Shown: positions 3,874 to 63,959 of the stretch, piece by piece | How positions within the stretch are numbered: position 1 is the stretch's first letter | Layout of the letters: each line of letters begins with the position of its first letter | IMG/VR virus record: IMGVR_UViG_3300010356_000998 | Coordinates: 1 to 64,000 of that record | Source of the DNA: a virus | Lineage: Duplodnaviria > Caudoviricetes | DNA length: 64,000 bases | Strand: one strand, 5' to 3' | Translations under genes and position numbers: made by a program | Notes under the pieces: model-generated | Database searches by the model: none | The model's input: the letters and a program-made list of their open reading frames with translations, nothing else | What the model was told of the DNA's origin: nothing

Positions 3874-6800
3874 ATGCCTGAAATTACAATACCAAGTACA
3901 AACACTAAGTTTGATCCTAAAGTTAGTTTGTTTGAAGAAGCTAATAAACTAGGAGTTAAACCGTTAGTGTTAGCTGATAAAAAATTTAGTGTAGATTCTC
4001 AATCGAACACTTTAAATAGTTTTAGTAATATAGATGCTTCTGAATATGGAAAAAACACTTCGCTGTTTGGTTCTGATTCAGAAGCATCAGCTATTTTAAA
4101 TGAGCAGCGAGCTCAAAATCAAGGAGCTGGTGAACAATTATTAAAAGGATTAGGTCATCTAACTTCTACAGTAGGAACTGAAATATTAAAAGTACCTGGT
4201 TATATAGGAGGATTAGTTGCAGCACCAGCTATGGAAGGTTCACTTATAGAAAATATAGTAGATAATGCTTGGGTTAATGCTTTTGAAGAATTAGATGAAG
4301 GTATTAAAAATCAAATGCCTGTATATTTAACCAAGGAAGTTCAAGAAGGTGGTATTGGTAGAAAATTAGCTTCGTCAGCATGGTGGGCTACTACTGGTGC
4401 TGAAGGTATCGGATTTATGTTATCAATGTTTGCACCTGGTCAAGCTTTAAAAGCTTTAGGTGTTGGTGCTAAACTAGGAAAAGGAATTCAAGCTATAGCA
4501 AAAGAATCTAAATTAGCAAAAATAATTACATCAGAGAAGTTTTTAAAACCTACATTGAATGGTTTAGAGATGACAAGTGATGGCGTTTCTAAAATAGAAT
4601 CTACTGCTGCCATAGCTTTAAATACTTATATAGAAGCTGCTGCTGAAGGAGCTAATACATTTGATAATGTAAGAAAACAGTACTTACAAGATAACCCAGA
4701 TGCTTCCGATGAAGAGGCTAGAAAAGTTGCTAGTGAAGCTGCGGCTAATGTAGTAAAAGCTAATATAGGTGTACTACTTCTGTCTAATGGATTGGATGAA
4801 TTATTTTTATTTAAAGGTTTTGCCGGAGGAGCTGAGAAAATGGCTGAAAAAAGTGTTTTAGGTAAAATTATGAAAAATGGTATTATAGATGTAGACGAAG
4901 CCGGTAAATTAAAAAGAGCTGGTTTAAAAGAATTTGTTAAAGCAGCTCCTTTAAAAATAGCATCTAATTTTGCAAAAGAAGGTTTATTTGAAGAAGGTCT
5001 TCAAACTAAAATTCAACAACATTATGAAGATGTTGCTAGTGGTAAAACTAAAGCTTCTTTTACTGAAGATGTTTTAGGTAATTATTTTGAATCATTGTTT
5101 AACGATCCTGCGATGCAAGAAGCTGTTGTATTAGGTGGTATACTTGGTTCAGGTGCTTCAATGTTTAGTTTAGCTTCTGATATTAAACAAAAGAATGAAA
5201 TGTTATATGGTAGAGAAGCATATACTCCTTCAGCGATTGGTAGATTTTTTGGTAAAAAACAAAAAGAAGCTACTAAAGGATTAGTTAATATAATGAATGA
5301 AAACTTTATTAATTCTACAAGAAGTATTTTCGATATTGCTGAAAAAGATGCTGATGGTAATGTGATTAGAGAAAATGGTAAACTTAAAATTAATGAAACT
5401 AAATTAAAAGATTTAGTTGAACAAAAAGAAGGATTACTATTATTAAATCAATTACATAATTTAGCTGTACTTGAAGGTAATAAAGTGGAAGAAGAAATGT
5501 TAGGCGATTTATTATCTTTTAATTACTTTATGCCATTCTTACAACAAGATGGTGGTTTTGAATTATTAAACCAACATATTTCAAATCAGCTTGTTGACTT
5601 AATGGCAAAGAAAACAGAAGATGCTGGTGGAGGTGTACCTACAGAACAAGATAAAGAAAAGTTAAAAACTAAGCTTTTAAGTAAAGCTAAAGAATATAAA
5701 GATATATATGACACTGTCCATAAAACTACAAATACTGAATTTTATATTCCTGTAGATAATCCTCAAGAATACAGTGGTTGGAAAGAGACAGTTAAGAATA
5801 GAAAGATACAAGCTCTAGTTACTCATAATTCTGCTCAAAAAAGTTTAAATGAATTAAATGAAAAATATCCAGAAGGTATTGATGAAAATACATTACCTCC
5901 TGATAAATTTATCGAATATAAACTTACATCTAAACTTAAAGAAGAGTATCAAAAAAGAGTAAATGATGCTAAAGAAACTTATACAAAACTTTCTTCAGAA
6001 AAAGGTCTTAAAGAAGATTATGAAAAATTCAATAAACAAATACAAGAAGATCTTAAAAAAACTGAAGAGATTGTAAAAGAGGAGGCAGAAAAAGATGAAA
6101 AGATAAAAAATAAACTATCATCTGTTAATTCTTTAAAAGCAAAAGCATCAAGTGTTGGATATGAGGAAAATGAAATGGTTTTATTAGAAGATGATTACGG
6201 AGATCGATTTAAATTTAATCCTTCTACTGGAGAAGTTACTAATGCGTTTGGAAAAACTATTGAAGATTTTGAAGATATGTATGTTGTTCCAAAAAATCTT
6301 GTTTCAAAAGAACAACAAGATTTAGAACAACTAAAAACTTCAATGGAAGTAGCTGAACAGTATAAAGAAGTTTTAAATACTCGTCAAAATTATAAAGAAG
6401 ATTTTGATGTAGAATCTGTAAATAATTCTATTAAAGATTTAATAAATGCTGTAAAAACTTTATATGCAGATAGGCTTAATGGTAAACAAGGTAAAACTAA
6501 AAAATTATTTAGATTACCTAAGTTAGATAAAGGTATATCTGAATTAAATAAAGCTATCGATACTTTAAATAAAAGACTTGAGTATCTAGAATCTTTACCT
6601 TTAAATGATCAAACAGTTAAAGATAAGACAATAGAGTTACTTACAAAATTAGTTAATTTAAGAAATACCTTAACTAACATATCTAAATTAAGCGATATAT
6701 CATTTGGTATAGCAGTTAAAGATACATCTTTATTAAATAAATTACATCAAACTTTTCCAAATGCGCCTTATCTATTTAATAAAATAATGGATAAGAAAGA

Positions 6801-9800: not shown

Positions 9801-9828
9801 TAACATTGTACAAAAAAATTGTAAATGA
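3874..9828 (+). CDS. Giant virion/ejection protein (RNAP-associated) with a C-terminal zincin-like HExxH motif
   Basis: 1984 aa. The N-terminal part has Gly/Ala hydrophobic helices. The C-terminal part has MEHEYQH...YESEINNRA. Overlaps the RNAP start (ATGA). Confidence 0.65.
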   Translation: MPEITIPSTNTKFDPKVSLFEEANKLGVKPLVLADKKFSVDSQSNTLNSFSNIDASEYGKNTSLFGSDSEASAILNEQRAQNQGAGEQLLKGLGHLTSTVGTEILKVPGYIGGLVAAPAMEGSLIENIVDNAWVNAFEELDEGIKNQMPVYLTKEVQEGGIGRKLASSAWWATTGAEGIGFMLSMFAPGQALKALGVGAKLGKGIQAIAKESKLAKIITSEKFLKPTLNGLEMTSDGVSKIESTAAIALNTYIEAAAEGANTFDNVRKQYLQDNPDASDEEARKVASEAAANVVKANIGVLLLSNGLDELFLFKGFAGGAEKMAEKSVLGKIMKNGIIDVDEAGKLKRAGLKEFVKAAPLKIASNFAKEGLFEEGLQTKIQQHYEDVASGKTKASFTEDVLGNYFESLFNDPAMQEAVVLGGILGSGASMFSLASDIKQKNEMLYGREAYTPSAIGRFFGKKQKEATKGLVNIMNENFINSTRSIFDIAEKDADGNVIRENGKLKINETKLKDLVEQKEGLLLLNQLHNLAVLEGNKVEEEMLGDLLSFNYFMPFLQQDGGFELLNQHISNQLVDLMAKKTEDAGGGVPTEQDKEKLKTKLLSKAKEYKDIYDTVHKTTNTEFYIPVDNPQEYSGWKETVKNRKIQALVTHNSAQKSLNELNEKYPEGIDENTLPPDKFIEYKLTSKLKEEYQKRVNDAKETYTKLSSEKGLKEDYEKFNKQIQEDLKKTEEIVKEEAEKDEKIKNKLSSVNSLKAKASSVGYEENEMVLLEDDYGDRFKFNPSTGEVTNAFGKTIEDFEDMYVVPKNLVSKEQQDLEQLKTSMEVAEQYKEVLNTRQNYKEDFDVESVNNSIKDLINAVKTLYADRLNGKQGKTKKLFRLPKLDKGISELNKAIDTLNKRLEYLESLPLNDQTVKDKTIELLTKLVNLRNTLTNISKLSDISFGIAVKDTSLLNKLHQTFPNAPYLFNKIMDKKDANKVLGSKNTTLKNNVVTNFKDNLEDLDKALEIVNSVKDYSKSGEVFMSTPEGMDSKNYTYVTNLESDTLYEKLKDFDLSNDYFNDFHTALDEVISKNYHEVSEKVLEKTVHSSQKQDVDTAEITEEPADLDKIFAQKALPKTPFVTTGVSVKYDQQGKDVINNEGYPELTPFETQKRWFNTIDKYADTLQDYQLVPVTGATKNPELLAAIQSGFTNPSLLNDTDVFVFLVDKDGNFVKENGKHVFTSLRKPSTMFPENGMAKVAPDYTINLYLQSLGVPAVDSFEKIKNQKIGNFVLGKKARAKLKDLIDSDATGQTLLVLANEYAKEQYEAFINEILNNTDSNVSLKIEGVTKGYQLYRVDKNGKRIKNKIQDVFNNISFTNLPGTNQLKGGKIGVVVNADVKVGNEFLNLPKGTVYFQFDNNEVITLDSRTLNDKEVLTVIYLLSLADNNKDLNTITIPSKNGYTFNGKSIGKNIPVFFKKSKTNEQAFSLLETLINYGLRKDTKNKKGEIYIQSGKVVFTDFNGNLNEIPLSKLTEAIKNKNSSEIKPLVDFLKQKRFNVHNLLINNNPTFIYPIYENGKLTVNENRSYFEFMFNEVLTTTAMSKDGYPRRLQRNVMFDSKLTKMSKKAPVKHAENKPVALETSEKVTEESIINRQILGWKTQIEKLSPKEIKDILNHQLNNLTGFAELLIKIGIQPTEEHVNTIFNAVYDIKPKVPVLENKTKSIDDQIADQKADIERRRKESFEQITSPEDFKKLGLEQNKDEPPYSTTLDAGDENLEETLFADSKEKLIDKINAKYDAEIAALQNKTEEILKYKNIEVIDTENIVNAEGKKGAAQLDRDNNVIRINRKILKVKFEEKAWTKPRDLIEVIHGEKVTSAAQALPENQFSNYQEFENFVMEHEYQHSIYTREDFDKEFPNKTKGDYESEINNRALKELGLSEKITEQASLEKPKKLSAKEKLDKLKGEKKSITLSKTPTADKRIDNESLLDYYIKNNIVQKNCK

Positions 9829-60065: not shown

Positions 60066-60120
60066 AATTAAATATTTAAGAATGATAAAAATCAAAGAAG
60101 AAAAATGATAAAACTGTCTT

Positions 60121-60193
60121 TGTTGCATACGGGGCTCGAACCCGTAATTCAAAATCCGAAATTTTTGCGATCAACCAATTGATCTAATGCGAA
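60121..60193 (-). tRNA. Degenerate tRNA, probably Arg(TCG)-like
   Basis: Good D arm (GATC/GATC) and T arm (ACGGG-TTCGAGC-CCCGT). The acceptor has mismatches and the anticodon loop is (A)TTTCGGA. Confidence 0.55.
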
Positions 60194-60219
60194 GTAAGTT
60201 TTATCTAACTATCTTTGAT

Positions 60220-60501: not shown

Positions 60502-60603
60502 GAGTCTTGATCCCTATGCACCCGCATTAGAGGAGTTCACTCGCTGGTTAATTCCAGATGTGCATCTTAACTCCATCTATCAACAGTTTTACGGTCAAGA
60601 CTC
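60502..60603 (-). ncRNA. Candidate stem-closed pseudoknot RNA (element B)
   Basis: GAGTCTTGA/TCAAGACTC closing stem; crossing helices GGAGTT/AACTCC and ATGCAC/GTGCAT. Confidence 0.5.
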
Positions 60604-60611
60604 TTTTTTTA

Positions 60612-60707
60612 CCTGGTCGCCTTTCGACTTAGAGGACTTTGCCCAGAGTTTTATGGTGAGGTGTCTTTCGACAAGGATGCCATCGTTTTAGCAACCCAAC
60701 TCCCAGG
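60612..60707 (-). ncRNA. Candidate structured RNA with two GAAA tetraloops (element A)
   Basis: CCTGG/CCAGG, GAGTT/AACTC, TTGCT/GGCAA, ATGG/CCAT, TGTC-GAAA-GACA and GTC-GAAA-GGC. Confidence 0.5.
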
Positions 60708-60722
60708 GACTATAACCATCGG

Positions 60723-60846
60723 TGGGGGAGGCTAGAATCGAACTAGCGACAGTCAGCTTTGCAGGCTGATACTCTACCGATGAAACTCTTAAATAACTAC
60801 CTTTCGGAGAAAATTTAAAGAGTTGTTGTAACTGAGTTACTCCCCC
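60723..60846 (-). tRNA. tRNA with GCA (Cys) anticodon, A73 and a 51-nt hairpin insertion in the D-loop
   Basis: All four stems pair perfectly: GGGGGAG/CTCCCCC, ACTC/GAGT, TCAGC/GCTGA, GCTAG/CTAGC. The insert spans 60780..60830. Confidence 0.8.
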
Positions 60847-60855
60847 ATTAGTTTT

Positions 60856-60923
60856 AAAACACTATCCCTGCATACGCACATCCGGGATCAGACGTAGACC
60901 AACGCCGTATGTTATAGTGTTTT
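60856..60923 (-). ncRNA. Candidate structured RNA (element C)
   Basis: AAAACACTAT/ATAGTGTTTT, CATACG/CGTATG and GCGT/ACGT. Confidence 0.45.
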
Positions 60924-60928
60924 GTATT

Positions 60929-61282
60929 TTAGGCTACTTGAAAAGTATTTTGTTTCTTAGCACCTCTTGTGCGTCTTCGATAATTGTGATTCATCTTGAG
61001 AATATCACACAATTCTCGACACTTGGTAACAAAGAAATCATTTCGATCTCTTATGGGTAATCCCTCACTGTCAAATTTCCATTGTGGATCAACCATAGCT
61101 TTACCGGCCGCTTTTGTACGACCTGTTTTGCGACAAAATTGATCTGCTCCATGACAATAAGACATACCAATTCGAAGTTCGTCGTTAACGAAGATGCCGG
61201 CAAATGATGCACGGCTTTTGTACAAACGTTTTTTTCCGCGCTGTTCGGGCGGATTAACGTGAAAAAACATTAGCTTTTCCAT
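60929..61282 (-). CDS. Hypothetical phage protein
   Basis: C...DQFCRKTGR motif. Start moved to MEKLMF because the longer ORF overlaps tRNA-Trp. Confidence 0.55.
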   Translation of the reverse strand: MEKLMFFHVNPPEQRGKKRLYKSRASFAGIFVNDELRIGMSYCHGADQFCRKTGRTKAAGKAMVDPQWKFDSEGLPIRDRNDFFVTKCRELCDILKMNHNYRRRTRGAKKQNTFQVA

Positions 61283-61312
61283 AAATTTGTTTTTAAGTGA
61301 AAAAATATTTAG

Positions 61313-61385
61313 CGAATGCGGCAGGATTCGAACCTGCAACCTTTGGTTTTGGAGACCAATACTCTACCAATTGAGCTACGCAAAC
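61313..61385 (-). tRNA. tRNA-Trp(CCA)
   Basis: TTGGT-CTCCAAA-ACCAA anticodon arm, G73, two U.U mismatches in the acceptor stem. Confidence 0.85.
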
Positions 61386-61473: not shown

Positions 61474-61676
61474 GACCTGCTAGAGAGGGCTTGAACTCCT
61501 CAACTACTTACTTATAAGGCATATACTTTACCAGTTGAACTATATCCGCCAATAGAGGTTTATCATCCTTTGATGACTTAATGGTTGTCACTGCCATTTT
61601 TCAGGTATTCTTAAGTAACCCTGTTCCATTTTCCTCTATTGACGGAACGACTAGACTCGAATTAAATTACGCAAGC
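61474..61676 (-). ncRNA. tRNA-like RNA (TAT anticodon) with a ~126-nt structured D-loop insertion
   Basis: GCTTGCG...GCAGGT acceptor, ATTT/AAGT D stem, CTTATAA anticodon loop, TTCAAG T loop. The insert has a 14-bp stem TCCGTCAATAGAGG/CCTCTATTGGCGGA. Confidence 0.55.
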
Positions 61677-61870: not shown

Positions 61871-61882
61871 AATCGAAAAGTT

Positions 61883-61949
61883 AACGGGTAAATGGGGAGA
61901 GTTATGTTGTGACACCAAAAAGTCGAAGTAACTCTCCCCTAACCACGTT
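61883..61949 (-). ncRNA. Candidate Y RNA (Ro60-binding stem, YrlA-like, lacking the tRNA module)
   Basis: AACGTGGTTAGGGGAGAGTTACTTC...TAACTCTCCCCATTTACCCGTT forms a terminal stem with an 11-bp core, about 165 nt downstream of the TROVE gene. Confidence 0.55.
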
Positions 61950-61962
61950 TATATTTTAAAGA

Positions 61963-62113: not shown

Positions 62114-63757
62114 TCATACAAATTCAATTGATTTAACTGTTTGAATTATTTCATTTGGATTGAATTCCACATGTTTGATTTGTTCAAACACATGATTTCC
62201 ATATCCATAGATATAATGTACTTTTGGCCCAACTAATTGAGTTGTGCCGTAGGCTGCTAAATCAACTGAATACACGTAAGGTCTTCCACACTTTTCTATA
62301 TAATCCTGATATGCTTTGTAAGTATTACCTACATTACATTCATGATCAGAGAAAATGAATACACGATCGTACTTTTTAGTAGAAGCGAGTTTCCAAGCTT
62401 CTGCTAAATTAGTTGAGCCCATTTCAGATTTAAATCCAGAAGCAATTGTAAACACATCATCACTGATTTTATAGTTTACATAATTTGCTTTAGACCCAAA
62501 TCTAATAATATCCGCATTTGTAGCTTTAGCGATAGTAGCTGCTAACAAACACGCTTTATCACCAGCGTATGATTTGTAAGTAACTGCATTATTTCGATTG
62601 CCGTTCTTTACATAACCATTTAGCATCCACATTGAACCAGACTGATCAACAATAACAAGAGTATTACCTGTAAGCAATTCAGCGAAGTTTGGAATACTTT
62701 GCTTATAACCTACTGTTAATTCTTGTACAATTCTTCTTGATTCAGGAGAATTGAATTCATTGTTAATTACTTCAATAGCAATGTCGAAATGATATGGCAT
62801 TATTTTACCTTGTATAACCTTGTTAGGGTCAGATACAAGAGCACATAACATATTTACAGTATCTCTTGTCGGATTTGACAAAAGAATACTACGGATATTG
62901 CGCAGTGCTGCCATAATACCAAGACGACCTTCTGACAGCAACTGATTCCAGTTTTGCTCTTTAGCTTCTTGTAGAAGTTGTTGAGCTTCTTGCTGGTTAA
63001 TATTACCTTCACGTACAGCACGAGCAATTTCTTGCCCAGCTTCACTCTGAGCATTCTCCCATGTATGAGCAGGAATGTTATTTCCTCTCATAATATAGTC
63101 AAGTGCTGCAACACTATGTGCTTTTTCTAATGATATTTCTGGTGTTTTCCAAGGATTAGGATGCACCATATTAGCAACATCACGAATTTGTTTCGTGTAT
63201 TTGCCAAAATTATACAAATCCAATCCTTCAATCGTCATAGCAAATCCTTTCTTCATGGAAGCAGGCAGGGATTTGTTATTATTCAATTTATAATATGCCA
63301 TAATTTCAGACATATCGTCAGTTCTGAAAATAACACCGCCTTTCTTAGTTTTTTTATTCCAAGCAGAATAAAAATACTTTGCCCATGGTTGACCAGAAAT
63401 GTATGGAGCAATTGTTACTGCAGCTACATGAGATACAGAACGTAGACCTTCTCCCAAACAGCGAGAATAAACAATACATTGTGCTGTGAAATATGGATTT
63501 TCTTTAGCACATTCGATAACAACAGCTTTCAAATTACGAATCTGTTGAGATTCTGATTTATAATACTGTTGTTCTAGTTTTAGCGTATTAAGCATAGAAA
63601 GTAGTTTTAACCACTTATCCATATTATACGCTGGTGAGCCACTGATATTAGTAGCTTTTGGTGGTGCTGCTGTTTGTTTCTTTTTATGTGAAACAAATGA
63701 AGCAGTTTGATTCTTACCATCCAACTTTTTTTTGAGTTCGGAGTTAAATTTTGACAT
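62114..63757 (-). CDS. Ro60/TROVE-domain RNA-binding protein with a C-terminal vWA domain
   Basis: GLRSVSH, RTDDMSEI, YNFGKY, HP, HTWE, MAALRNIR, and vWA MIDAS VDQSGSM...TNL...FSD. Confidence 0.88.
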   Translation of the reverse strand: MSKFNSELKKKLDGKNQTASFVSHKKKQTAAPPKATNISGSPAYNMDKWLKLLSMLNTLKLEQQYYKSESQQIRNLKAVVIECAKENPYFTAQCIVYSRCLGEGLRSVSHVAAVTIAPYISGQPWAKYFYSAWNKKTKKGGVIFRTDDMSEIMAYYKLNNNKSLPASMKKGFAMTIEGLDLYNFGKYTKQIRDVANMVHPNPWKTPEISLEKAHSVAALDYIMRGNNIPAHTWENAQSEAGQEIARAVREGNINQQEAQQLLQEAKEQNWNQLLSEGRLGIMAALRNIRSILLSNPTRDTVNMLCALVSDPNKVIQGKIMPYHFDIAIEVINNEFNSPESRRIVQELTVGYKQSIPNFAELLTGNTLVIVDQSGSMWMLNGYVKNGNRNNAVTYKSYAGDKACLLAATIAKATNADIIRFGSKANYVNYKISDDVFTIASGFKSEMGSTNLAEAWKLASTKKYDRVFIFSDHECNVGNTYKAYQDYIEKCGRPYVYSVDLAAYGTTQLVGPKVHYIYGYGNHVFEQIKHVEFNPNEIIQTVKSIEFV

Positions 63758-63761
63758 TTTT

Positions 63762-63959
63762 TTAATTTTCAAGATGAACAATTTTTACTACATCATCTGC
63801 ATAAAAAACTGTTTGATCATCTTCGTTATAAAAATCTGGTTCTATAGGAATAATTAAGTCTATTGCAAAATTTTTATCATCGTAATAAAATTTAATTATT
63901 CCTGTAAACCAATTTTCATTAATAGTTTTAAAAGCAACAATTGATCCTTTTTGCATAAT
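63762..63959 (-). CDS. Small hypothetical protein
   Basis: MQKGSIVAF..., located between a tRNA and TROVE. Confidence 0.4.
   Translation of the reverse strand: MMQKGSIVAFKTINENWFTGIIKFYYDDKNFAIDLIIPIEPDFYNEDDQTVFYADDVVKIVHLEN

What the first reader, a model, noticed from the sequence alone, without database searches (positions are those of the whole stretch)
60723..60846. Otherwise perfect tRNA with a 51-nt hairpin in the D-loop and mismatched identity
Seen: all stems are Watson-Crick perfect, arguing against decay. The D-loop is AGT-[51 nt]-CGGTA, and the insert folds as AACTCT-TTAAAT...CC-GAAA-GG...ATTTA-AGAGTT. The anticodon is GCA (Cys) but the discriminator is A; CysRS normally needs U73. 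The insert is far too short for a self-splicing group I or II intron. Inference: a protein-spliced, archaeal-style D-loop intron in a phage, or a retained docking arm that makes this a specialised or mis-acylated tRNA.
Basis: partly seen in the sequence, partly recalled or inferred. Interest (0 to 1): 0.75.

Follow-up and report, generated by a model that had tools for sequence, protein, structure and literature searches.

The report
tRNA carrying a Y-RNA docking arm
This phage gene is a complete tRNA shape whose D-loop carries a conserved hairpin, the same stem that forms the base of the phage's Y-RNA-like RNAs beside its Ro60 gene, so it is most likely a retained protein-docking arm on a tRNA mimic and not an intron.

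Summary
On the minus strand at 60846-60723 lies a 124-nt cloverleaf with all-Watson-Crick stems, anticodon GCA, discriminator A and a 51-nt hairpin between U16 and C17.

The hairpin is not a one-off. It is a circularly permuted, GNRA-capped copy of a stem-bulge-stem module. The module has strong covariation. A covariance model built from it finds 104 further copies in Ro60/TROVE-encoding phages. All are on the TROVE strand and close to that gene. None were found in 79 loci on contigs in which no TROVE gene was detected.

The same module forms the basal stem of RNAs whose core matches Rfam YrlA. Nine other tRNA-shaped RNAs in eight other phage contigs carry the capped module in the D-arm. In several of them, removing it would not leave a tRNA.

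Strain variants keep the hairpin, with GAAA changed to GGAA. No insert-less form was seen. The phage has no RtcB, splicing endonuclease or RNA ligase.

My reading is a retained Y-RNA-type docking arm, probably for the phage Ro60, on a tRNA mimic with a free acceptor end. The intron reading is not supported. Ro60 binding and charging are untested.

The scan's earlier AI notes describe similar RNAs in other phage genomes.

The parts
60723..60846 (-). Whole 124-nt tRNA-shaped RNA (anticodon GCA, discriminator A at 60723, followed by CC at 60722-60721)
   Evidence: Sequence; cloverleaf fold; partial Rfam tRNA hit.
60840..60846 (-). Acceptor stem 5' strand GGGGGAG (pairs with 60724-60730). Identical to that of the homologous RNAs in L130 and L132.
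60831..60837 (-). D-stem 5' strand ACUC plus D-loop A14 G15 U16
   Evidence: The same D-arm without an insert (AACUCAGUCGGUAGAGU) occurs in a normal tRNA of another TROVE phage contig.
60780..60830 (-). 51-nt insert: linker UACAACA, the module hairpin, and linker UCAU
60813..60824 (-). Inner helix, 'return strand' (AACUCUUUAAAU). It is preceded by the ACAACA linker, as in standard module copies.
60808..60812 (-). Conserved 3'-type flank (A)UUUUCU. C60809 and U60808 pair with G60797 and A60798.
   Evidence: covariation of this pair (AU 7, GC 6, none unpaired).
60800..60807 (-). Cap CC-GAAA-GG (a GNRA tetraloop). It takes the place of the open outer helix of standard module copies.
   Evidence: The variant GGAA occurs in a strain (position 60804). 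L112 and L113 have GCAA. L130, L132, L179 and L180 have GUAA.
60794..60799 (-). Conserved 5'-type flank U-A-G-U-U-A (bulged U60799, then the AG pair, then UUA)
60784..60794 (-). Inner helix, 5'-type strand (AUUUAAGAGUU), followed by the junction UCAUCG, which runs into G18 G19
60758..60764 (-). Anticodon loop CUGCAAA (GCA)
60731..60747 (-). T arm GCUAG-UUCGAUU-CUAGC
61881..61951 (-). Minimal standard copy of the same module, 163 nt after the TROVE stop codon
   Evidence: Covariance model R1, 79.1 bits; fold.
60094..60217 (-). Standard module copy enclosing a tRNA-like payload, directly after tRNA-Met
   Evidence: Covariance model R1, 34 bits; fold.
62114..63781 (-). Ro60/TROVE-like gene, the presumed protein partner of the module
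   Evidence: Pfam TROVE; PHROG 850 at 5.7e-35. A family profile matches PDB 9KOP/9L5Y (Thermus phage Ro60) and 1YVP (Xenopus Ro60).

Best explanation
The gene encodes a chimeric tRNA/Y-RNA. The body is a complete, foldable tRNA with a free acceptor end. A retained extra arm projects from the D-loop between positions 16 and 17. That arm is the capped, circularly permuted form of a lineage-specific stem-bulge-stem module. The module reads: outer helix, bulged U, an R-G/C-Y pair step, a UUA/AUUUU internal loop, a 9-11 bp inner helix, then the junction strands YUCG and ACAAC.

In the same phages the module forms the basal stem of the Y-RNA-like RNAs clustered next to the Ro60/TROVE gene.

The following is shown:
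- The arm is homologous to the module, and the module's helices covary.
- The module is tightly linked to TROVE genes.
- The module sits at the base of RNAs with a YrlA-type core.
- The D-arm wiring is conserved in other phages.
- Strain variants preserve the hairpin.

The following is inferred:
- The arm stays in the mature RNA.
- The arm is the docking site of the phage Ro60.
- The tRNA body acts as the effector or mimic part, engaging enzymes that recognise tRNA. This follows what has been proposed for YrlA.

With A73 instead of U73 the RNA is unlikely to be a working tRNA-Cys.
For: (1) A side-by-side table of 22 standard and 2 permuted copies shows the same flanks, helices and junction strings in the D-loop hairpin.
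(2) Covariation on 13 minimal copies: 98.5% of cells are paired, 11 of 15 pairs have compensatory changes, and the score is 0.81 against 0.24 shuffled and 0.13-0.24 for slid partners.
(3) Covariance model R1 finds 39 copies at E below 0.01 in close relatives. It finds 65 in 49 IMG/VR loci chosen only for a TROVE gene, all on the TROVE strand.
(4) In 80 unrelated viral loci the only 4 hits fall in L027, which is the same TROVE-bearing contig as L161.
(5) Whole-genome scans of this phage and five others give no confident hit far from TROVE; the six confident hits in four of them lie within about 5 kb of it, one weak hit (E 0.005) lies about 10 kb away, and one genome has none.
(6) L118:12551-12680 has the module as its basal stem and a core that matches Rfam YrlA (37.6 bits, E 3e-7, model 23-85). 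L124:6100-6163 matches YrlA at 30 bits.
(7) Nine further tRNA-shaped RNAs carry the capped module in the D-arm: L112, L113, L130, L132, L179, L180 and two in L171. All have a 7-bp acceptor stem that covaries and discriminator A. Seven of the nine caps, and this one, are GNRA tetraloops.
(8) Strain variants change GAAA to GGAA, U16 to C, and add one linker base, but leave the helix intact. No joint that skips the insert was seen.
(9) A contig from an RNA library is 100% identical over 60724-60827 and includes the hairpin (record 2). This is a weak hint only.
(10) The phage has no splicing endonuclease, RtcB or RNA ligase domain.
(11) Published Ro60 sites are stem-bulge-stem elements with a CGAA-type motif on the 5' strand (PMC4201824, PMC12135203). 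The module junction reads CUUCGA(A) or CAUCG.
Against: There is no direct evidence that Ro60 binds the module.

The module lacks the exact published motif GNCGAAN0-1G. In this copy the junction reads CAUCGG.

Rfam YrlA does not match this RNA at all.

The link between TROVE and the module could reflect shared descent of one gene cassette and not a physical interaction.

The RNA-library contig also carries a 48-nt 3' trailer. It could therefore be a precursor or contaminating DNA, so it does not prove that the arm is retained in the mature RNA.

This copy, unlike several relatives, would yield a flawless 73-nt tRNA if the arm were removed. That keeps a processing scenario alive.
Confidence: 0.6

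Rival explanations
1. The hairpin is a small intron. A host or phage endonuclease and ligase remove it, giving a 73-nt tRNA(GCA) that decodes UGU/UGC.
For: Removing exactly 51 nt leaves a textbook cloverleaf. Its D-arm (AACUC-AGUCGGUA-GAGU) is identical to that of an ordinary tRNA in another TROVE phage. The phage's other tRNAs read A/U-rich codons, so a Cys tRNA would fit the set.
Against: There is no bulge-helix-bulge. The phage has no endonuclease, RtcB or RNA ligase, and bacteria are not known to have a tRNA splicing endonuclease. The same module closes complete RNAs where excision is meaningless. Homologous RNAs in L112, L113 and L130 have no D-stem once it is removed. No insert-less joint was seen in any run. 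The discriminator is A, or G in a variant, and not the U73 that CysRS needs.
Confidence: 0.08
2. The module is a processing or stability signal for the long RNA-cluster transcript. It could be an RNase III-type site or the site of some other phage protein, and would have nothing to do with Ro60. In the D-loop it would lead to cleavage into two tRNA halves or would gate maturation.
For: Standard copies bracket payloads much as rRNA and T7 processing stems do. One copy encloses a complete tRNA(UCA) (L112:12827-12952). The first copy sits at the 3' end of the TROVE mRNA. A Hatchet ribozyme in L118 shows that these clusters use RNA processing elements.
Against: The loop and bulge sequences are strictly conserved. 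The module is restricted to TROVE-carrying phages. It occupies the position of the Ro-binding stem in RNAs with a YrlA-type core. These points fit a specific protein partner encoded next door. A cleavage site inside an otherwise perfect tRNA has no obvious benefit.
Confidence: 0.17
3. It is a working, aminoacylated decoder tRNA that merely tolerates, or uses, an extra elbow arm.
For: All tertiary-contact nucleotides are intact. The 3' end reads ACC, like the phage's genuine tRNAs, which end N73-C(C). A strain variant encodes G-CCA. D-loop positions 16/17 face the solvent in tRNA structures (textbook knowledge).
Against: A73 or G73 with a GCA anticodon matches no known identity set. There is no G3:U70 and no long variable arm. 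The family's other members have degenerate D-stems and varied anticodon-like loops (GAU, UAU, CAU, CCU), which points to mimicry rather than decoding.
Confidence: 0.12
4. It is a decaying tRNA gene hit by a chance insertion or a small mobile hairpin.
For: ARAGORN and Rfam fail to call it as a full tRNA.
Against: All stems are perfect. The architecture is conserved in eight other phage contigs. Strain variation preserves the structure, including the GNRA loop.
Confidence: 0.03

Closest known systems
YrlA (Rfam RF02553; Chen et al. 2014, PMC4201824), the bacterial and phage Y RNA with a tRNA-like domain bound by Rsr/Ro60
   Same: It is encoded next to a Ro60/TROVE gene. It combines a stem-bulge-stem element with a tRNA-like body that keeps the D-loop/T-loop elbow nucleotides. 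Sister RNAs in related phages (L118, L124) have a core that matches the YrlA model and use the same module as their basal stem.
   Different: The wiring differs. In YrlA the RNA ends form the Ro-binding stem at the anticodon-stem position and the acceptor stem is closed by a loop. Here the ends form a normal open acceptor stem with A73-CC, the anticodon arm is complete, and the capped stem comes out of the D-loop. Rfam YrlA gives no hit on this RNA. The stem sequence is different: UAGUUA / AUUUUCU, with no GNCGAAN0-1G.
Deinococcus radiodurans Yrn1 and Thermus phage phiLo Yrl1/Yrl2 (PMC4201824, PMC12135203)
   Same: These are Ro60 partners defined by a 5'-3' stem flanking a bulge with a CGAA-type motif. 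In the phage case they are encoded beside a phage Ro60. In Yrn1 the stem sits at the acceptor position, as in the standard module copies here.
   Different: Those RNAs are not complete cloverleaves and have no free acceptor end. Their binding to Ro60 has been shown experimentally, whereas here it is inferred.
Archaeal non-canonical tRNA introns, including D-loop introns (e.g. Aeropyrum pernix, PMC3241643)
   Same: A short insert interrupts the D-loop of an otherwise normal tRNA gene.
   Different: Archaeal introns need a bulge-helix-bulge and an EndA-type endonuclease. Neither is present here, and the surrounding genes are those of a bacterial-type tailed phage.
Group I introns of bacterial and phage tRNA genes
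   Same: An interrupted tRNA gene in a phage or bacterial setting.
   Different: Group I introns are over 200 nt, lie in the anticodon loop and match Rfam Intron_gpI. This insert is 51 nt, lies in the D-loop and has no Rfam match.

Membership tests
Canonical tRNA (RF00005) | Four-arm cloverleaf with a 7/4/5/5 bp stem pattern and conserved tertiary nucleotides | tested here: met
   fold. U8, A14, G15:C48, G18 G19, U54 U55 C56 and A58 were read.
Canonical tRNA (RF00005) | Full-length match to the tRNA covariance model and detection by a tRNA finder | tested here: not met
   Rfam matches only model positions 6-65 at 33.4 bits. ARAGORN does not call it.
tRNA-Cys | GCA anticodon | tested here: met
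   Loop CUGCAAA at 60764-60758.
tRNA-Cys | U73 discriminator (the major CysRS determinant; textbook knowledge) | tested here: not met
   A at 60723. It is G in a strain variant (loose end at 60724).
Archaeal-type spliced tRNA intron | Bulge-helix-bulge at the exon-intron junctions | tested here: not met
   The junctions lie in 7-nt and 4-nt linkers flanking an 11-bp helix.
Archaeal-type spliced tRNA intron | Splicing endonuclease and ligase available | tested here: not met
   PF01974, PF01139 and PF09414 are absent from the 99%-complete phage genome. The PF09511 search had no positive control. The host is unknown.
Group I / group II intron | Ribozyme core of at least about 200 nt that matches an intron model | tested here: not met
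   The insert is 51 nt and there is no Rfam hit at E up to 10.
YrlA (RF02553) | Match to the YrlA covariance model | tested here: not met
   No YrlA hit on 60600-60950 at E up to 10. Sister RNAs L118:12585-12652 and L124:6100-6163 match only the core, below the gathering score.
YrlA (RF02553) | Permuted topology, with the ends forming the Ro-binding stem and the acceptor stem closed by a loop | tested here: not met
   The acceptor stem is open and the module stem is capped.
Y RNA in the broad sense (Ro60 partner) | Encoded adjacent to a Ro60/TROVE gene | tested here: met
   The TROVE gene at 62114-63781 is on the same strand, 1.3 kb upstream. The module-TROVE linkage is shown.
Y RNA in the broad sense (Ro60 partner) | Stem-bulge-stem element with a conserved 5'-strand motif | tested here: inconclusive
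   The stem-bulge-stem is strongly supported by covariation. The motif is CUUCGA or CAUCG rather than GNCGAAN0-1G (PMC4201824).
Y RNA in the broad sense (Ro60 partner) | Physical binding to Ro60 | not testable with these tools
   This needs a gel-shift assay, co-immunoprecipitation or a structure.

The most novel reading that the evidence does not exclude
The RNA receives a CCA end and is aminoacylated while carrying Ro60 on its elbow. It would then be a chargeable tRNA physically tethered to an RNA-surveillance ring. The phage could use it to bring Ro60 to synthetases, EF-Tu or the ribosome. Alternatively, Ro60 binding could gate whether the tRNA can be used.
Probability: 0.1. Interest if true: 0.85.

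Novelty: new variant of a known kind. Interest (0 to 1): 0.65.

Why it matters
Y RNAs are known to tether Ro60 to other factors. The bacterial YrlA class mimics tRNA, but what its tRNA-like part engages is still unknown.

Here the same idea appears in a different wiring. The Ro-type stem is grafted onto the elbow of an otherwise complete tRNA. Both functional ends of the tRNA, the acceptor end and the anticodon loop, stay free.

This gives experimenters a compact natural construct, and a family of more than 100 module copies in three wirings. With it they can ask which tRNA-binding machinery Ro60 particles are directed to during phage infection.

It also has a practical side. tRNA finders and Rfam miss these genes, so phage tRNA and Y-RNA inventories are incomplete.

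Tried and rejected
1. An exact-pattern scan of IMG/VR for ACTCAGT-N30-60-CGGTAGAGT gave 110 loci. None became a tRNA after removing the gap. One hit (L027) was simply two adjacent tRNAs.

2. Scans of IMG/VR and JGI metagenome contigs for the cap string TTTTCTCCGNRAGGTAGTTA gave only chance hits in coding DNA.

3. A single-protein search for related loci with the TROVE protein found nothing. The same search with the DNA polymerase found one distant phage without tRNAs. Relatives came only through the protein database and an alignment query.

4. Megablast of the RNA cluster against isolate phages gave no match.

5. A purely structural descriptor for capped module hairpins was not specific: 37 hits in TROVE loci against 46 in controls. 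Only hits that also carry the conserved flanks were kept.

6. A looser sequence pattern for permuted copies is expected about 0.5 times by chance in the DNA searched. So the pattern alone is not the evidence. The shared flanks, junction strings, cap type and tRNA context are.

7. The CGAA inside the cap CC-GAAA-GG looked like the published Ro motif. I rejected this because relatives have GCAA, GGAA or GUAA there.

8. The MAFFT alignment of the six D-arm RNAs mis-set the 5' ends. I did not use it for pair counts.

10. The RNA-library run held only a small share of the stretch. Its single contig cannot show a transcript end, strand or level.

Full report
**Observation**

The feature lies on the minus strand at 60846-60723. 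It reads GGGGGAG-UA-ACUC-AGU-[51 nt]-CGGUA-GAGU-A-UCAGC-CUGCAAA-GCUGA-CUGUC-GCUAG-UUCGAUU-CUAGC-CUCCCCC-A, followed by CC-G.

Every stem is Watson-Crick, and the nucleotides that make tRNA tertiary contacts are all present. The 124-nt RNA folds as a cloverleaf with an extra hairpin in the D-loop. The energy is -37.8 kcal/mol with z = -3.5.

ARAGORN does not call the gene. Rfam tRNA matches only the part 3' of the insert, at 33.4 bits over model positions 6-65.

The record is an IMG/VR phage genome of 108,742 nt with 30% G+C, estimated to be 99% complete. The gene sits in a tRNA cluster 1.3 kb downstream of a Ro60/TROVE gene on the same strand. A profile of that protein family matches solved Ro60 structures: 9KOP, 9L5Y and 1YVP.

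**The hairpin is a copy of a recurrent module**

A protein search with the TROVE gene gave relatives at 43-63% identity. I fetched their contigs.

In all of them the RNA cluster by TROVE contains a conserved element. It consists of:
- an outer helix;
- a bulged U;
- a two-pair step, R-G paired with C-Y;
- an internal loop, UUA opposite AUUU(U/A);
- an inner helix of 9-11 bp;
- junction strands UUACUUCG or UUUCAUCG on the 5' side and ACAAC-type on the 3' side.

A payload follows. The payload may be a tiny hairpin, a tRNA-like body, a complete tRNA(UCA), or a permuted tRNA-like core.

The D-loop insert of the flagged gene has the same strings in rotated order: ACAACA, return strand, AUUUUCU, CC-GAAA-GG, UAGUUA, forward strand, UCAUCG. 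So the outer helix is closed by a tetraloop and the inner helix opens into the tRNA.

**Support for the module**

On 13 minimal copies:
- 98.5% of cells are paired;
- 11 of 15 pairs show compensatory changes;
- the covariation score is 0.81, against 0.24 for shuffles and 0.13-0.24 for slid partners.

Covariance model R1 gave these counts:
- 39 copies at E below 0.01 in the close relatives, L122 and L124;
- 65 copies in 49 IMG/VR loci retrieved only by their TROVE gene, all on the TROVE strand;
- in 80 unrelated viral loci, 4 hits, all in L027, which is the same TROVE-bearing contig as L161.

In whole-genome scans of this phage and five other TROVE phages, every confident hit lies within about 5 kb of TROVE. 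One weak hit (E 0.005) lies about 10 kb from it, and one genome gave no hit.

**Link to Y RNAs**

L118:12551-12680 has the module as its basal stem. Its core matches Rfam YrlA at 37.6 bits (E 3e-7, model positions 23-85), with the T arm, closed acceptor stem and D arm in YrlA order. L124:6100-6163 does the same at 30 bits.

In these RNAs the module occupies the place of YrlA's Ro-binding stem.

Published Ro60 sites are stem-bulge-stem elements with a CGAA-type motif on the 5' strand (PMC4201824; PMC12135203). The module resembles this (CUUCGA) but does not reproduce the motif.

**The D-arm wiring is a conserved class**

Nine other tRNA-shaped RNAs carry the capped module at the D-arm:
- L112:12153-12270
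- L113:12803-12916
- L130:6524-6641
- L132:10517-10636
- L179:10898-11021
- L180:7870-8001
- L171:746-882
- L171:7686-7821

All have a 7-bp acceptor stem that covaries (GGGGGAG, GGGGAGG, GGGGAAG, GGCGAGC and others). All have discriminator A, a T arm and an anticodon-like arm. The anticodon-like loops vary: GAU, UAU, CAU, CCU.

L180 and both L171 copies keep a D-stem, as this gene does. L112, L113 and L130 do not, so excising the arm there would not give a tRNA.

The gene in this window is the most tRNA-like member. Its D-arm without the insert is identical to that of an ordinary tRNA in another TROVE phage.

**Natural variation and expression**

Public runs place the phage in activated sludge, wastewater and freshwater biofilm.

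Contigs from three other studies contain the insert. A strain variant changes GAAA to GGAA (60804), U16 to C (60831), G1 to A (60846), and adds one base in the linker. The helix is untouched. No joint skipping the insert was seen.

One 157-nt contig from an RNA library is identical over 60724-60827, hairpin included. It then continues G-CCA-UUCUAG... instead of A-CC-GAUGG. This is only a weak hint of an unspliced RNA, because it could be a precursor or DNA.

The break falls exactly at the tRNA 3' end, and a second contig breaks at the same place. This shows mosaic exchange at gene boundaries.

**Against splicing**

There is no bulge-helix-bulge. The phage has no tRNA_int_endo, RtcB or RNA_ligase domain. 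The T4 Rnl1 search had no positive control.

**Identity**

The anticodon is GCA, but the discriminator is A (G in a variant). There is no G3:U70 and no long variable arm. By textbook identity rules the RNA should not be charged by CysRS. I could not test this.

The phage's ordinary tRNAs end N73-C(C), as this one does, so CCA completion is plausible.

**Verdict**

The intron reading is not supported. The docking-arm reading is supported and made more specific: the arm is a Y-RNA-type stem, probably for the phage Ro60, grafted onto the elbow of a tRNA mimic.

The arm's homology to the module, its covariation, its linkage to TROVE and the conservation of the wiring are shown. Retention in the mature RNA, Ro60 binding and function are inferred.

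It is a new wiring variant of the known Ro60/Y-RNA tRNA-mimic system. I found no description of it in the papers I could search. Earlier AI notes of this scan report similar RNAs in other phage genomes. I used them as leads only.

Noticed in passing
L112:9655-9776: A tRNA-Asn(GUU)-like gene carries an insert of about 50 nt in the anticodon loop, bounded by an 8-nt direct repeat (TGTTAACA). It lies right beside a normal tRNA-Asn at 9803-9874. Rfam tRNA scores it 54.7 bits over the full model.
   Followed up: partly
L112:12827-12952: A standard module copy encloses a complete 73-nt tRNA with anticodon UCA, which reads UGA. At the corresponding place this window has tRNA-Trp(CCA) at 61312-61385. 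This may point to UGA recoding in that relative.
   Followed up: no
L118:5949-6089: A Hatchet self-cleaving ribozyme scores above the Rfam gathering score (57.7 bits) in the RNA-rich region upstream of the TROVE gene of a related phage. A DUF805b RNA hit lies at 5246-5280.
   Followed up: no
L118:9902-9975: ARAGORN calls a tRNA with a four-base anticodon (gtca) just upstream of TROVE. It could be a frameshift-suppressor-type tRNA, or another mimic.
   Followed up: no
L124:1609-2177 and 5733-5836: Four tRNA-like genes of 104-122 nt share nearly identical ends (AGTCAGGTGG...CCTGTCCTGACTA) but have different long internal segments. They lie in a more distant TROVE phage.
   Followed up: no
window 61474-61676 (-): This is a second tRNA-like gene, with a weak acceptor stem, loop CUUAUAA and a T arm. 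It has an insert of about 126 nt at the D-loop made of a 14-bp stem topped by three hairpins. Neither my pattern searches nor model R1 find the canonical module in it. By gene order it sits where relatives have their D-arm module RNA.
   Followed up: partly
window 60629-60723 (-): The structured element just downstream of the tRNA recurs in other contigs with about 15% divergence. Those contigs diverge exactly at 60723/60724, the tRNA 3' end (records 1 and 2). This suggests cassette-like shuffling of RNA genes.
   Followed up: partly
window 61312-61385 (-): As printed, the acceptor stem of tRNA-Trp(CCA) has two U-U mismatches (positions 2:71 and 3:70), even though Rfam scores it 65 bits.
   Followed up: no
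window 60856-60923 (-): A long hairpin closed by a 10-bp stem (AAAACACUAU / AUAGUGUUUU) lies directly upstream of the flagged gene. It is another structured RNA of unknown role.
   Followed up: no
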